From the NCBI GenBank assembly GCA_963802945.1, contig CAWDKY010000040.1:1-10190 (forward strand): a stretch of 10,190 nt of DNA, in the 5' to 3' direction. The stretch comes from an uncultured delta proteobacterium. Its GTDB lineage: Bacteria; Desulfobacterota; RBG-13-43-22. Below the pieces are notes generated by a model. It saw only the letters and a list, made by a program, of their open reading frames with translations, was not told the origin of the DNA and did no database searches. Both the position numbers and the translations under genes were made by a program. This document shows, in pieces, positions 7,153-10,190 of the stretch (position 1 is its first letter; every line of letters begins with the position of its first letter).

Positions 7153-7950
7153 ATGCTTTTTCAGGAATTTCCCATCCGACACATTAAACCCATAGCACCG
7201 GATATTTATCTCCTGAGCTTTACCTCCCGTCCTATTGCCGTGCAGTCCCGTCCTGGGCAGTTCGTCATGGTCCGCCCAACCAAATTTTCAGAGCCTCTCC
7301 TGCCCCGTCCTTTTTCTATCCATCGAGTCCAGGGAAATCAGGTGGAGCTCCTTTTCAAGGTAGTAGGCCAGGGGACCAGACAGTTAGCTGATCTGAAAAA
7401 AGGGGATCTTCTGGAAGTCAGAGGACCCTTGGGACAGGGATTCAATTTTGATATAAACCAGGACCCGATCCTGGTAGCCGGCGGGATAGGCGTGGCCCCT
7501 CTGCTCTTTTTAGCCGAAACCTGGAGGCATTCCCAAAAGAAAAACCCAAAATGGTCTTTCAAGCTTTTTATCGGCGCCAGGAATAAGGCCGAACTTCTTT
7601 TTCTGAAAGAATTTGAACAGGCTGGAGCAGAAGTATTCGCGGCCACGGAAGATGGGTCCTATGGCCGGAAAGGATTAGTGACCCAGTTGTTGGCCATGAC
7701 CATAAAAAGACCTTCTGCCAATCCAACGTTGTTCGTCTGTGGTCCAAATCCTATGTTGAAGACGGTTCGAAACTGGGCCGTTCAAAAAGGGATTCCCTGC
7801 CAACTGTCTTTGGAGACCCATATGGCCTGCGGCCTGGGGGCCTGTCTGGGGTGCGTGGTGGCCAGGAAAGAAGGTTCAGGTTTTTCTTATGTCAGAGTCT
7901 GTCAGGAAGGGCCGGTCTTTGAAGCCCGAGAGGTATTCTGGGATGAATAA
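7153..7950 (+). CDS. pyrK: Dihydroorotate dehydrogenase B electron transfer subunit (FAD/[2Fe-2S])
   Basis: PGQFVM, RPFS, GPLG, VAGGIGVAPL, TEDGSYG, CGPNPM and MACGLGACLGC..VCQEGPVF motifs; directly upstream of pyrD. Start is ATG 7153 or TTG 7147. Confidence 0.95.
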   Translation: MLFQEFPIRHIKPIAPDIYLLSFTSRPIAVQSRPGQFVMVRPTKFSEPLLPRPFSIHRVQGNQVELLFKVVGQGTRQLADLKKGDLLEVRGPLGQGFNFDINQDPILVAGGIGVAPLLFLAETWRHSQKKNPKWSFKLFIGARNKAELLFLKEFEQAGAEVFAATEDGSYGRKGLVTQLLAMTIKRPSANPTLFVCGPNPMLKTVRNWAVQKGIPCQLSLETHMACGLGACLGCVVARKEGSGFSYVRVCQEGPVFEAREVFWDE

Positions 7951-8869
7951 ACCCTTCGCTCCCGATCTCTCCATTACTATCGCCGGGATAAGGATGAAAA
8001 ATCCAGTCATGACCGCTTCCGGGACTTTCGGTTATGGAAAAGAATACGCGGACTTTTTGGATCTGAATCAATTGGGGGCCTTGATCACCAAAGGGATTTC
8101 CTTGAAACCCATGCCCGGCAATCCTCCTCCGAGGATCTGTGAAACCCCTTCGGGGATGCTAAATGCCGTCGGTCTTCAAAATGTGGGAGTGAAGGGTTTT
8201 ATTCAAGACAAACTTCCCTTCCTCTCGAAACTTCGTATCCCGGTAATCGTCAATATTTTAGGTCATTCCATCAGGGAATATCAGGAAGTGGCCAGACATC
8301 TGAATGATCAGCCGGGGATTTCCGCCCTGGAGGTCAATATCTCCTGCCCCAATGTGGCCCGAGGTGGAATGGCTTTCGGGGCACAGCCTCGAACGGCCTT
8401 CAAGGTCATTTCTAAAGTCCGTCAGGCCACCCGTCTGCCTCTGATGGCCAAGTTGACGCCCCAGGTAACCGATATTGCGGTTATAGCCAAAGCCATAGAA
8501 GGGGCCGGAGCAGATGCTGTTTCCTTAATCAACACCATCCCAGCCATGGCCGTGGATATTGACTCCCGGCATTCTAAACTGGGTCGTATCAAAGGTGGTC
8601 TATCCGGACCGGCCGTCAAACCCGTGGCCTTGCGATTGGTCTATCAGGTGGTTCAATCCGTTTCCATACCGGTTATCGGCATAGGAGGGATCCGGACGGC
8701 AGAAGATGCCTTGGAATTTCTCCTGGTCGGGGCTAAGGCCGTCCAGATCGGAACAGCCAATTTTATTCGGCCCACAACGATGTTGGAGGTCATCGAGGGA
8801 ATAAAAAAATATTTCACAAATAAAAAAATTCCCAGAATAACGGATTGGATAGGATCATTTATTTCTTGA
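7943..8869 (+). CDS. pyrD: Dihydroorotate dehydrogenase class 1B catalytic subunit
   Basis: NPVMTASGTFGYG, ITKG, GMLNAVGLQNVG, NISCPN (catalytic Cys), KLTP, INT, GGLSGPAVKP, IGIGGI and VQIGTANF. Start at ATG 7943 overlaps the pyrK end by 8 nt, which suggests translational coupling. Confidence 0.96.
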   Translation: MNKPFAPDLSITIAGIRMKNPVMTASGTFGYGKEYADFLDLNQLGALITKGISLKPMPGNPPPRICETPSGMLNAVGLQNVGVKGFIQDKLPFLSKLRIPVIVNILGHSIREYQEVARHLNDQPGISALEVNISCPNVARGGMAFGAQPRTAFKVISKVRQATRLPLMAKLTPQVTDIAVIAKAIEGAGADAVSLINTIPAMAVDIDSRHSKLGRIKGGLSGPAVKPVALRLVYQVVQSVSIPVIGIGGIRTAEDALEFLLVGAKAVQIGTANFIRPTTMLEVIEGIKKYFTNKKIPRITDWIGSFIS

Positions 8870-8996: not shown

Positions 8997-9779
8997 ATGG
9001 ATTCCTTATTCCATCAAACCATCAACGGTCTTTCCTTCTTTCAGTTCCCGTTGTTTCAATCCATACCGGGATTGACTCATGGAATCTTCACCCGTCATGG
9101 CGGGAAAAGCCAAGGGGCTTACGCCAGTCTTAATTTAAGTTTTTCAGTGGGCGATGACCAACAAAAGGTGGTTGATAACAGGGAACTGCTGCTGAAAACC
9201 TTAGGAATCCCCGGCCTTCAGAGTCTAAAACAGGTGCATGGCAAAGAAACGGTGGAAATTCAAGACCAACCGTCCAAACAGTCACATTCGGCCCCGGAAT
9301 CAACATCCGGAGACATCCTGATGACCCAGGTGCCGAAACAGGGCTTGATGGTTAAACAAGCCGATTGTCAGTCCATTCTGCTCTATGACCCTGTTCACAA
9401 GGCCATTGCCAATGCTCATTGCGGCTGGCGGGGAAACGTGAATAATGTTATCGGGGAAGCCGTCAGAAAAATGAGGAAGGTTTATAAGACCAAACCATCC
9501 AGTCTGTTGGCGGGAATAGGACCCTCTCTGGGACCTTGTTGTGCCCAGTTCATCAATTACAAAAAGGAAATACCGGCCAAATATTGGACCTACCAGGTCC
9601 GCCCCTATTATTTTGATCTCTGGCGTTTAAGTCGGGATCAGTTGATGGCCGCCGGGGTTTTAGAGGACCATATTGAGATTGCCGGTATCTGCACCTCCTG
9701 CCGGACCAAAGACTTTTTTTCCTTTCGGAAGGAAAAGAAAACCGGCCGTTTTGCGACCGTTATTGCTTTAGGTGTATAA
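8997..9779 (+). CDS. pgeF: PgeF/YfiH family protein (peptidoglycan editing factor; laccase-domain, FAMIN-like purine nucleoside enzyme)
   Basis: FTRHGG, SLNL, QVHG, ADC, HCGWRG, IGPSLGPCC, FDL, CTSC, FFSFR and TGR motifs; 260 aa. Confidence 0.92.
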   Translation: MDSLFHQTINGLSFFQFPLFQSIPGLTHGIFTRHGGKSQGAYASLNLSFSVGDDQQKVVDNRELLLKTLGIPGLQSLKQVHGKETVEIQDQPSKQSHSAPESTSGDILMTQVPKQGLMVKQADCQSILLYDPVHKAIANAHCGWRGNVNNVIGEAVRKMRKVYKTKPSSLLAGIGPSLGPCCAQFINYKKEIPAKYWTYQVRPYYFDLWRLSRDQLMAAGVLEDHIEIAGICTSCRTKDFFSFRKEKKTGRFATVIALGV

Positions 9780-9911
9780 GTCAGGATTTGACTATACAGG
9801 CATTGTCAAGTGTGATGAAGACTTCTTCCTTGTTTATTCCAGTCAATAGTTTTTTATCTTTAAAGGCGTTATAGGTTTTGATTTACCAGGGGGGTTCCCC
9901 ATCGCTCTATG

Positions 9912-10096
9912 ACATCCTACCCAACCCTTGTGATTCGAAAGTCGTCTGAGAGACGCTTTGACCTTGCTTAATTGGAGTTAGGATGTTGACGGGGAGTCAT
10001 GAACTCTGTACTGGGAGGTCGCTTAAACGCCTCAATGGAAGAAAACGATGATCTCCCCGCCTGTGTGCTCATCCCTTAGGCCGCCTTTTTGAGCAC
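9912..10096 (-). ncRNA. Candidate bridge RNA / seekRNA
   Basis: 5' hairpin GTGCTCA/TGAGCAC (10096-10065). Stem-loop 1 (10061-9988) has a 14x14-nt internal loop. Stem-loop 2 (9986-9912) has a large internal loop. Both are capped by the same motif: 4 bp, a 3' bulged A, then a CG-started hairpin. Loop segments match the flanking junction. Confidence 0.65.
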
Positions 10097-10189
10097 CCTT
10101 CTTTCGAGGGTTTGATATTGTCCCACATAGTCGGTGTTGTCCCGAACGATGGCATGGATGATAGCAATACGTAATAGTTGTTTGAGTGA
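10076..10189 (-). CDS. C-terminal 37 aa of a probable IS110-family transposase (start outside the window, possibly truncated)
   Basis: Open frame SLKQLLRIAIIHAIVRDNTDYVGQYQTLERRVLKKAA*. It resembles the IS110 C-terminal helix (RKLL.II.A.VRD...Y) and the KKAA-type ending. Too short for the ORF track; no catalytic motifs are visible. Confidence 0.55.
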   Translation of the reverse strand, partial: SLKQLLRIAIIHAIVRDNTDYVGQYQTLERRVLKKAA

Positions 10190-10190
10190 G

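What the first reader, a model, noticed from the sequence alone, without database searches (positions are those of the whole stretch)
9822..9846. RNA loop segments match both sides of a junction 80-220 nt away, defining the element end, core and target
Seen: the element-strand junction reads TTGACT-GGAA-TAAACAA-GG-AAGAAG. The 5' side of loop 2 is UAAGCAAGG (9970-9962), matching TAAACAAGG (9836-9828) at 8 of 9 positions; the one difference is a G:T wobble. The 5' side of loop 1 contains UUCUUCC (10043-10037), complementary to GGAAGAA (9829-9823), extendable by one U:G pair. The two matches overlap only on the GG dinucleotide, as expected for a 2-nt core. A -35 hexamer sits 11 nt inside the core. 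Known: IS110-family circles create a junction promoter, and the order of strand matches is reported to be reversed in IS1111-type versus IS110-type seekRNAs. Inference: loop 2 is donor-binding and loop 1 is target-binding. Caveat: the matches are short, and the 3' loop segments lack an obvious core dinucleotide.
Basis: partly seen in the sequence, partly recalled or inferred. Interest (0 to 1): 0.75.

Follow-up and report, generated by a model that had tools for sequence, protein, structure and literature searches.

The report
Bridge RNA of an IS110-family element

Summary
On the minus strand, window 10190-9831 is the 3' part of an IS110-family element: the transposase C-terminus, a ~245-nt non-coding RNA region and the right end. 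The contig stops inside the transposase. A full sister copy (C32, 421-aa transposase) and 123 related loci let me read the guide code by covariation.

- **Loop 1 binds the target.** Its 5' side (10045-10037) pairs with the right flank. Its 3' side (AGUAC-AG, 10012-10006) matches the left flank plus core.
- **Loop 2 binds the donor.** Its 3' side (ACA-AG, 9931-9927) matches the right end plus core.
- **The core is AG (9830-9829), not GG.** AG flanks both ends in relatives and sits at the junction of about 20 uninterrupted copies of the target repeat in the same genome.
- **A junction promoter would form.** The left end of relatives supplies TATATT at 17-nt spacing from the -35.

Verdict: a new member of a known kind (bridge RNA/seekRNA, IS1111-like layout).

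The parts
10076..10190 (-). C-terminal end of the IS110-family transposase gene, cut by the contig end; stop TAA at 10078-10076
   Evidence: tblastn of the 421-aa C32 transposase hits window 10168-10079 (30 aa, 80% identity). The C32 protein has PF01548 + PF02371 and NF033542 at 199.7 bits against a cutoff of 140.
9988..10061 (-). Stem-loop 1, the target-binding loop: outer stem, internal loop, inner hairpin 10033-10015
   Evidence: MFE fold; consensus structure with compensatory pairs.
10037..10045 (-). Right target guide (UUUUCUUCC) on the 5' side of loop 1. It pairs with the element-sense strand of core G plus right flank GAAGAAG. A at 10036 faces core A unpaired.
   Evidence: core G paired in 86 of 89 non-redundant pairs and RT1-4 in 85-87 of 89. 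Retargeted relatives change guide and flank together (L046 group, L129, L041).
10006..10012 (-). Left target guide AGUAC plus core copy AG on the 3' side of loop 1. It has the same sense as the left flank plus core, so it would pair with the bottom strand.
   Evidence: identical to the flank at 86, 81, 82, 72 and 71 of 91 for positions -1 to -5, against 13 and 21 of 91 at -6 and -7; the three highest ncRNA-target MI values fall at 10009, 10011 and 10012.
9912..9986 (-). Stem-loop 2, the donor-binding loop
9961..9968 (-). Right donor guide AGCAAG (9968-9963), the complement of the first 6 nt of the left end (CTTGCT). G at 9962 faces core G unpaired and U at 9961 faces core A.
   Evidence: AGCAAG with CTTGCT in 77 loci; AGCAGG with CCTGCT in 6 and with CCCGCT in 2, out of 95.
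9927..9931 (-). Left donor guide ACA plus core copy AG on the 3' side of loop 2. It has the same sense as the last 3 nt of the right end plus core.
   Evidence: ACA/ACA 41, ATA/ATA 47, ACC/ACC 8 and GTA/ATA 2 of 98. MI 1.00 with 100% concordance at 9930.
9841..9846 (-). -35 hexamer TTGACT, facing outward, 10 nt from the core
   Evidence: TTGAC is invariant in 87 of 87 aligned relatives. With the left end of relatives the spacer to TATATT is 10+2+5 = 17 nt.
9831..9840 (-). Right end of the element (GGAATAAACA). It is also the right arm of a 10-13-bp inverted repeat whose left arm lies about 64 nt inside the left end in relatives.
9829..9830 (-). Core dinucleotide AG, the crossover site; present at both junctions
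   Evidence: AG at 101 of 101 right junctions and at 90 of 96 left junctions (AA in the other 6). Uninterrupted repeats read ...TTC-AG-GAAGAAGTC.
9778..9828 (-). Right half of the target: the right module of a ~113-nt intergenic repeat of this genome
   Evidence: 20 short matches to window 9830-9780.

Best explanation
Window 10190-9831 (minus strand) is the right-hand portion of an IS110-family RNA-guided insertion sequence of about 1.6 kb. It has the IS1111-like layout: transposase first, then a ~245-nt non-coding RNA, then the right end. The RNA folds into two stem-loops, each with an internal loop. Loop 1 reads the insertion site. Its 5' strand pairs with the element-sense strand of the right flank (G of the core plus GAAGAAG). 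Its 3' strand (AGUAC-AG) has the sense of the left flank plus core, so it would pair with the opposite strand. Loop 2 reads the element's joined ends in the same way. Its 5' strand (AGCAAG) pairs with the first six bases of the left end, and its 3' strand (ACA-AG) has the sense of the last three bases of the right end plus core. Recombination would occur at the AG shared by the circle junction and the target, leaving AG on both sides of the inserted copy. Here the target is the loop of a hairpin inside a ~113-nt intergenic repeat present in dozens of copies. Joining the ends would place the right-end TTGACT 17 nt from a left-end TATATT. Shown: domain content, fold, boundaries, core, and guide/DNA covariation. 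Inferred: the base-pairing itself, the circle, the promoter's activity, and whether the window copy is still active.
For: **Family.** The sister copy C32 is 91.7% identical to window 9778-10162. It encodes a 421-aa protein with PF01548 + PF02371 and NF033542 'IS110 family RNA-guided transposase' at 199.7 bits against a cutoff of 140.

**Boundaries and core.** Homology to about 20 uninterrupted repeats begins at window 9830. An intact site at C45:7203 reproduces the C32 left flank, AG and right flank. Of 125 sequences examined, 109 had the RNA features. AG was found at 101 of 101 right junctions and 90 of 96 left junctions.

**Left target guide.** In 91 non-redundant pairs, the 5 nt before the core are identical at 71-86 of 91, but only 13 and 21 of 91 at -6 and -7. 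The mean paired count is 4.59 of 5 against 3.42 in 2000 shuffles (maximum 3.70). Mismatches lean towards G-for-A and U-for-C, which are wobbles with the bottom strand. An unbiased column-by-position scan puts the three highest MI values (1.05, 0.93, 0.61) exactly at 10009, 10011 and 10012.

**Right target guide.** 67 of 70 flanks of the main guide class read AG-GAAG. Three lineages changed guide and flank together: the L046 group, L129 and L041.

**Donor loop.** 96 of 98 identical trinucleotides in three states, plus 2 wobbles. AGCAGG co-occurs with CCTGCT or CCCGCT in 8 of 8.

**Fold.** 46 consensus pairs, 23 with compensatory changes.

**Free targets.** Three unoccupied perfect sites for the window's own guides exist in its genome, all inside the repeat.

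**Literature.** Two-loop target/donor logic with the core in the guides is described for IS621, and bridge RNAs are predicted in the right end of IS1111-group elements (Durrant 2024, passages). Top-strand match 5' of bottom-strand match is reported for IS1111 seekRNAs (Siddiquee 2024).
Against: - The window copy lacks its left part because the contig ends at 10190 and no other contig holds the rest. Its own left flank, left end and integrity are unknown; the left-side statements rest on C32 and relatives.
- In the window alone the matches are at chance level.
- Covariation of the right target guide rests on only three independent retargeted lineages. Most relatives share one guide, so shuffling has no power beyond RT4.
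- Donor covariation is confounded by clade structure: many columns correlate with the C/T state of the right end at MI 0.4-0.65, and only 9930 reaches 1.00.
- Exceptions exist. L041 needs a 1-nt register shift. L062 pairs only weakly. L058 could not be put in register. L030/L088 (one locus) sits in a flank that does not match its right target guide. Three of 70 main-class flanks lack GAAG.
- The 5' guides each leave one core base unpaired: A opposite core A paired in only 10 of 89, and there is a G opposite core G in loop 2. In IS621 the core is included in all four pairings.
- No RNA, circle or empty-site read was obtained.
Confidence: 0.86

Rival explanations
1. One reading: the core is GG (9829-9828); the 5' side of loop 2 (UAAGCAAGG) is a sense copy of the right end plus core; the left end should be complementary to the 3' side of loop 2.
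For: The 8-of-9 match is real in the window. A-to-G differences in C32 and others would be G:T wobbles.
Against: - The right end varies (ACA, ATA, ACC before AG), yet the 5' side of loop 2 stays AAGCAAGG in all three classes. The 3' side tracks it in 96 of 98.
- The 5' side instead changes with the left end: AGCAGG with CCTGCT or CCCGCT in 8 of 8.
- Left junctions read flank-AG-CTTGC with no GG.
- In intact sites and at both junctions, only AG is shared.
- A 9-mer with at most 1 mismatch arises in 1206 of 2000 shuffles.
Confidence: 0.04
2. Dual reading: because the donor junction is partly palindromic around the core, the 5' side of loop 2 serves both as the complement of the left end and as a weak sense match to the right end, for example during excision from the integrated state.
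For: The right end (..ACAAG) and the reverse complement of the left end (..GCAAG) resemble each other. The sense match holds in the ACA class (41 loci).
Against: In the ATA and ACC classes (55 loci) the sense match gains a C:A or A:C mismatch without any compensating change. No data bear on excision.
Confidence: 0.07
3. The window copy is an inactive remnant or a chimeric contig end: a right-end fragment with its RNA region but no functional transposase.
For: - The contig ends inside the gene.
- The last 22 nt before the contig end (10190-10169) fall outside the tblastn match to C32, and DNA homology to C32 stops at 10162.
- No second transposase copy is in the assembly.
- The genome is reported with 6.72% contamination.
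Against: - The reading frame stays open to the contig end and still resembles the C32 protein with one extra residue (read by eye).
- All four guide segments and both stems are intact.
- Assemblies commonly break inside repeated IS copies (general knowledge).
- This rival concerns activity, not identity.
Confidence: 0.25
4. Site choice is made by the protein alone, and the RNA/DNA matches are coincidence.
For: The in-window matches are at chance level.
Against: Position-specific covariation is confined to the four loop segments. Mismatches show the wobble bias expected of RNA-DNA pairing. The family is experimentally RNA-guided (Durrant 2024; Siddiquee 2024).
Confidence: 0.02

Closest known systems
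IS621 bridge RNA (IS110 group; Durrant et al. 2024, PMC11208160, passages read; PDB 8wt6)
   Same: A DEDD plus Transposase_20 recombinase. One RNA with two internal loops, the first for the target and the second for the donor. The left guides pair the bottom strand and the right guides pair the top strand. A 2-nt core is shared by donor and target. A junction promoter forms in the circle.
   Different: - Here the RNA lies 3' of the gene in the right end, not in the left end.
- The top-strand guides sit on the 5' sides of the loops and the bottom-strand guides on the 3' sides, the reverse of IS621.
- The core is AG.
- The left donor guide is only 3 nt plus core.
- Each 5' guide leaves one core base unpaired.
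- The protein is 421 aa and only distantly related: E 1.3e-9 over residues 258-401.
IS1111-type seekRNAs (ISEc11, ISPa11, ISKpn4; Siddiquee et al. 2024, PMC11187229, abstract and sections 6, 9 and 12 read)
   Same: The non-coding region lies downstream of tnp. The top-strand match is 5' of the bottom-strand match, and the two overlap at the insertion point. The ends abut in a circle to form a promoter.
   Different: - Those transposases are 330-350 aa, against 421 aa here.
- Their subterminal inverted repeats lie near both ends. Here the left arm of the only clear inverted repeat is 64-68 nt inside the left end.
- The short seekRNA described there covers the target loop only. Here a second, donor-reading loop is supported by covariation.
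REP-targeting IS110-family elements (ISPpu9, ISPpu10; seen as the search listing and reference 11, otherwise recalled)
   Same: Insertion into a hairpin of a multi-copy intergenic repeat, in one orientation.
   Different: The repeat here is a ~113-nt two-module element with no Rfam match. Whether it is a REP in the strict sense was not tested.

Membership tests
IS110 family RNA-guided (bridge) recombinase elements | Transposase with an N-terminal DEDD (RuvC-like) domain and a C-terminal Transposase_20 domain | tested here: met
   C32 sister copy: PF01548 98.4 bits, PF02371 73.9 bits; NF033542 199.7 bits against a cutoff of 140. The window itself keeps only the last ~37 codons.
IS110 family RNA-guided (bridge) recombinase elements | Non-coding RNA with two internal loops | tested here: met
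   window RNA; 87 sequences, 23 of 46 pairs with compensatory changes.
IS110 family RNA-guided (bridge) recombinase elements | Loop segments covary with target flanks and with the element ends | tested here: met
IS110 family RNA-guided (bridge) recombinase elements | Core dinucleotide at both junctions and in the intact target, with no other duplication | tested here: met
   AG at 101 of 101 right junctions and 90 of 96 left junctions; intact repeats.
IS110 family RNA-guided (bridge) recombinase elements | Circular intermediate with a junction promoter | not testable with these tools
   The sequence allows it: the -35 is 10 nt from the core in the right end and the -10 is 5 nt from the core in the left end of relatives, giving a 17-nt spacer. 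No circle junction was seen in contigs of four runs.
IS1111 group | Long non-coding region and guide RNA downstream of tnp, with the right end longer than the left end | tested here: met
   About 245 nt from the stop codon to the right end, against about 105 nt from the left end to the ATG in C32.
IS1111 group | Top-strand match 5' of the bottom-strand match in the RNA | tested here: met
   criterion from Siddiquee 2024, sections 9 and 12.
IS1111 group | Subterminal inverted repeats of 7-17 bp near both ends | tested here: inconclusive
   A 10-13-of-14 inverted repeat exists, but its left arm starts 63-69 nt inside the left end in 72 of 88 loci.
IS1111 group | Transposase of 330-350 aa related over its full length to that of IS1111 | tested here: not met
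   The protein is 421 aa. The relation to named IS1111 transposases was not tested. The best plasmid-collection hits are at most 35.8% identical and labelled only 'IS110 family transposase'.

The most novel reading that the evidence does not exclude
This is a separate lineage of bridge recombinases: about 421 aa, found in Thermodesulfobacteriota/Nitrospirota-type metagenome bins. It combines an IS110-sized protein with an IS1111-style 3' RNA and a reversed guide order. Its code is lopsided: a nearly fixed right target guide (GAAG), a freely evolving 5-nt left target guide (18 variants in 91 elements), and a minimal 3-nt left donor guide. The six elements with AA at the left junction but AG at the right would then record that the target's core stays with the left flank and the donor's core with the right end, which would be a natural read-out of strand-exchange polarity.
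Probability: 0.3. Interest if true: 0.5.

Novelty: new member of a known kind. Interest (0 to 1): 0.3.

Why it matters
It adds no new principle, because RNA-guided IS110/IS1111 recombination has been described since 2024. It does provide a fully read natural guide code (four segments, core AG, register and lengths) for an uncharacterised clade with more than 100 natural guide/target pairs. That could serve as a test set for guide-prediction rules or as a candidate orthologue for bridge-recombinase engineering. For the scan, it shows that short loop/junction matches read from a single sequence are at chance level and need comparative support. It also shows that a partly palindromic donor junction can mislead strand assignment.

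Tried and rejected
- **Rfam.** A scan of 9500-10190 at E up to 10 gave only two chance-level hits, PYLIS_6 at E 4.3 and Clostridiales-2 at E 8.9. No Rfam family matched the target repeat.
- **First guess at the C32 left junction.** My note 1 placed it at ...CTTAG|AAAATC. This was wrong and was corrected from the family-wide left end.
- **Rest of the window copy.** I searched the assembly for it and found nothing: the last 28 nt of the contig are unique, and tblastn finds only C32 and a 34%-identical fragment on C53.
- **Sequencing runs.** No RNA holder is listed. The best DNA holder holds 0.22 of the sampled words, and all holders are Logan contigs.
- **Laying four runs on the C32 element.** No circle-junction or empty-site joint appeared. 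Contigs cannot show rare forms, so this says nothing either way.
- **Promoter scan of the C32 element.** It found no separate sigma-70-like promoter ahead of the RNA region, so I infer, without evidence, that the RNA is made from the transposase transcript.
- **Four pairs inside loop 1.** RNAalifold proposed pairs between UUCU of the right guide and AGAA/AGAG after the left guide. They have almost no compensatory support (1-2 sequences each), and I do not count them as structure.
- **L058.** This locus (50% identity, left part missing) could not be put in register and was left out of alignment A2.
- **Supplements.** The supplementary figures and tables of both key papers were not opened. They may already list related elements.

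Full report
**What is in the window.** Read on the minus strand, the last 360 bases of the window hold four things in order. An open frame runs in from the contig end at 10190 and stops at TAA 10078-10076. About 245 nt of non-coding sequence follow. Then come the hexamer TTGACT (9846-9841) and the string GGAATAAACA-AG-GAAGAAGTC (9840-9820). The window is a whole contig, C40.

One sister copy lies on contig C32, 91.7% identical to window 9778-10162. It is complete and encodes a 421-aa protein. That protein has Pfam DEDD_Tnp_IS110 and Transposase_20. It scores 199.7 bits against NCBIfam NF033542, 'IS110 family RNA-guided transposase', whose cutoff is 140. The window keeps only the last ~37 codons (30 aa at 80% identity). 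No other contig carries the rest of the copy.

**The observation itself.** Taken alone, they are not more than chance. I ran 2000 dinucleotide shuffles of the 229-nt non-coding region against the 25-nt junction.
- A 7-nt antisense match arose in 376 of 2000 shuffles.
- Some 9-mer with at most one mismatch arose in 1206 of 2000.

The decision therefore had to come from other copies.

**Boundaries and core.** The sequence from 9830 outward (AGGAAGAAGTC...) is the right part of a repeat with about 20 further copies in this genome. In uninterrupted copies it is preceded by ...GAGGA(C/T)TTC. These copies are empty sites, and homology to them starts at 9830.

The transposase recovered 43 related loci from genome contigs. 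A five-protein alignment recovered the best 80 of 523 relatives from metagenome contigs. Their left ends all read flank-AG-CTTGCTATATT, and their right ends read TTGAC...AAA(C/T)(A/C)-AG-flank.
- Of 125 sequences examined, 109 had the RNA features.
- 101 of 101 right junctions carry AG.
- 90 of 96 left junctions carry AG, and the other 6 carry AA.
- The bases outside AG differ between the two junctions, so the shared core is exactly two bases.

The C32 copy's left flank, AG and right flank are reproduced by an intact site at C45:7203.

**The RNA.** The window RNA folds into two stem-loops, each with an internal loop (z -2.37, with 3 of 200 shuffles folding as well). I aligned 87 RNA regions: the window, C32, and 85 of 90 non-identical relatives. 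I left out L048, L049, L097 and L098 as near-duplicates, and L058 as divergent. RNAalifold returns the same two stem-loops, with 46 pairs of which 23 show compensatory changes.

**Loop 1 reads the target.**

*3' side.* The 3' side reads C-C-AGUAC-AG in the window (10012-10006). In 91 non-redundant element/flank pairs (94 before removing duplicates), the five bases before AG were compared with the five flank bases before the core.
- They are identical at 86, 81, 82, 72 and 71 of 91.
- The next two positions match only 13 and 21 of 91.
- The mean paired count is 4.59 of 5, against 3.42 for shuffled flanks (maximum 3.70 in 2000).
- The commonest mismatches are guide G over flank A and guide U over flank C. 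These are wobble pairs if the RNA binds the strand opposite the flank as written.

An unbiased scan of every RNA column against every target position puts the three highest mutual-information values (1.05, 0.93, 0.61) at 10009, 10011 and 10012. Every other value is 0.38 or lower.

*5' side.* The 5' side (UUUUCUUCC, 10045-10037) is complementary to core G plus GAAGAAG. Pairing holds at 85-87 of 89 for core G and the first four flank bases. Of the 70 flanks of the main guide class, 67 read AG-GAAG. Three lineages changed guide and flank together.
- The L046 group: CACCCUCCCCU with AG-GGGAGG.
- L129: UUUUCAACC with AG-GTTGCA.
- L041: AACCAUGUGA with AG-CGCATG, with a one-base shift.

Core A is faced by an unpaired A (paired in 10 of 89).

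**Loop 2 reads the donor.**

*3' side.* The 3' side ends ACA-AG (9931-9927). Its trinucleotide equals the last three bases of the right end in 96 of 98 loci, across three states: ACA 41, ATA 47 and ACC 8. The other two loci are G:T wobbles. In the unbiased scan, 9930 is the only RNA column with MI 1.00 and full concordance, apart from the right-end base itself.

*5' side.* The 5' side (AGCAAG, 9968-9963) is the complement of the first six bases of the left end (CTTGCT). Where the guide reads AGCAGG, the left end reads CCTGCT (6 loci) or CCCGCT (2 loci).

It fails because the segment stays the same while the right end changes to ATA or ACC. The resemblance arises because the joined ends are partly palindromic around the core.

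**Comparison with known systems.** The strand logic is that of IS621: left guides pair the bottom strand, right guides pair the top strand, the first loop is for the target and the second for the donor (Durrant 2024, passages). The positions within each loop are swapped, however. The RNA lies in the right end, as predicted for the IS1111 group. This also matches the order reported for IS1111 seekRNAs (Siddiquee 2024, sections 9 and 12).

The protein length of 421 aa does not fit the 330-350 aa given for IS1111 transposases (Siddiquee 2024, section 6). The only clear inverted repeat has its left arm 64-68 nt inside the left end. I therefore file the element under the IS110 family with an IS1111-like layout, and leave group membership open.

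**Promoter.** In the right end the -35 lies 10 nt from the core. In the left end of C32 and its relatives, TATATT lies 5 nt from the core. Joined ends would give a 17-nt spacer. TTGAC is invariant in 87 of 87 sequences. The circle itself was not observed.

**Target.** The repeat is about 113 nt long, intergenic, has no Rfam match and is built of two modules. The left module occurs in about 45 places. It ends in a hairpin (GAGGACTTC, loop AGGAA, GAAGTCCTC), and the crossover AG lies in the loop. Three unoccupied sites match the window's guides perfectly.

**Limits.**
- The window copy's left half is missing, so whether it is active cannot be told.
- Support for the right target guide rests on three retargeted lineages.
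- The donor signal is partly confounded by clade structure.
- L062, L058 and L030/L088 do not fit cleanly.
- No expression or circle data could be had.

Noticed in passing
window 9778-9830 and about 45 places in the genome (e.g. L003:1449-1561): A ~113-nt intergenic repeat made of two modules. The left module (about 45 copies) often occurs without the right one (about 20 copies). The two overlap exactly at the IS target, CAGGAAGAAG, which lies in the loop of a 9-bp hairpin. No Rfam match.
   Followed up: partly
L002:459-1439 (+), about 110 nt beyond the right flank of the C32 copy: A 326-aa ORF with a Y1_Tnp (IS200-like) domain fused to a DnaA C-terminal helix-turn-helix. It is a possible mobiliser of the repeat family; this was not tested.
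   Followed up: no
Relatives: right end next to the core, and 64-68 nt inside the left end (e.g. C32, L021-L040): A 10-13-bp inverted repeat between the right end (GGAATAAACA) and a site just upstream of the transposase ribosome-binding site. It partly covaries: right ends with TTGGATAAATA go with TCTTTATTCAAG. It could be an off-set subterminal inverted repeat or an RNA-level pairing.
   Followed up: partly
L033, L096, L097, L098, L124, L126: The left junction carries AA where the right junction and the guide carry AG (6 of 88 loci with both junctions). This would fit target-derived core bases staying with the left flank, with a G:T wobble to the left target guide.
   Followed up: partly
L030 and L088 (same locus in two collections): The right end plus AG is followed by CTTGCTAT, the first 8 bases of a left end, and not by a GAAG flank. 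It may be an insertion into a donor-like site or the remnant of a tandem copy.
   Followed up: no
window 10036 and 9962: Each 5'-side guide leaves one core base unpaired: A faces core A in loop 1, and G faces core G in loop 2. Both are nearly invariant in 87 sequences. In IS621 the core is described as included in all four pairings.
   Followed up: partly
window 7889-8869 and 8997-9779 (+): The neighbouring genes are ordinary: a dihydroorotate dehydrogenase-like protein and a Cu-oxidase_4 (YfiH/PgeF-type) protein. The stop codon of the second lies inside the end of the repeat.
   Followed up: no
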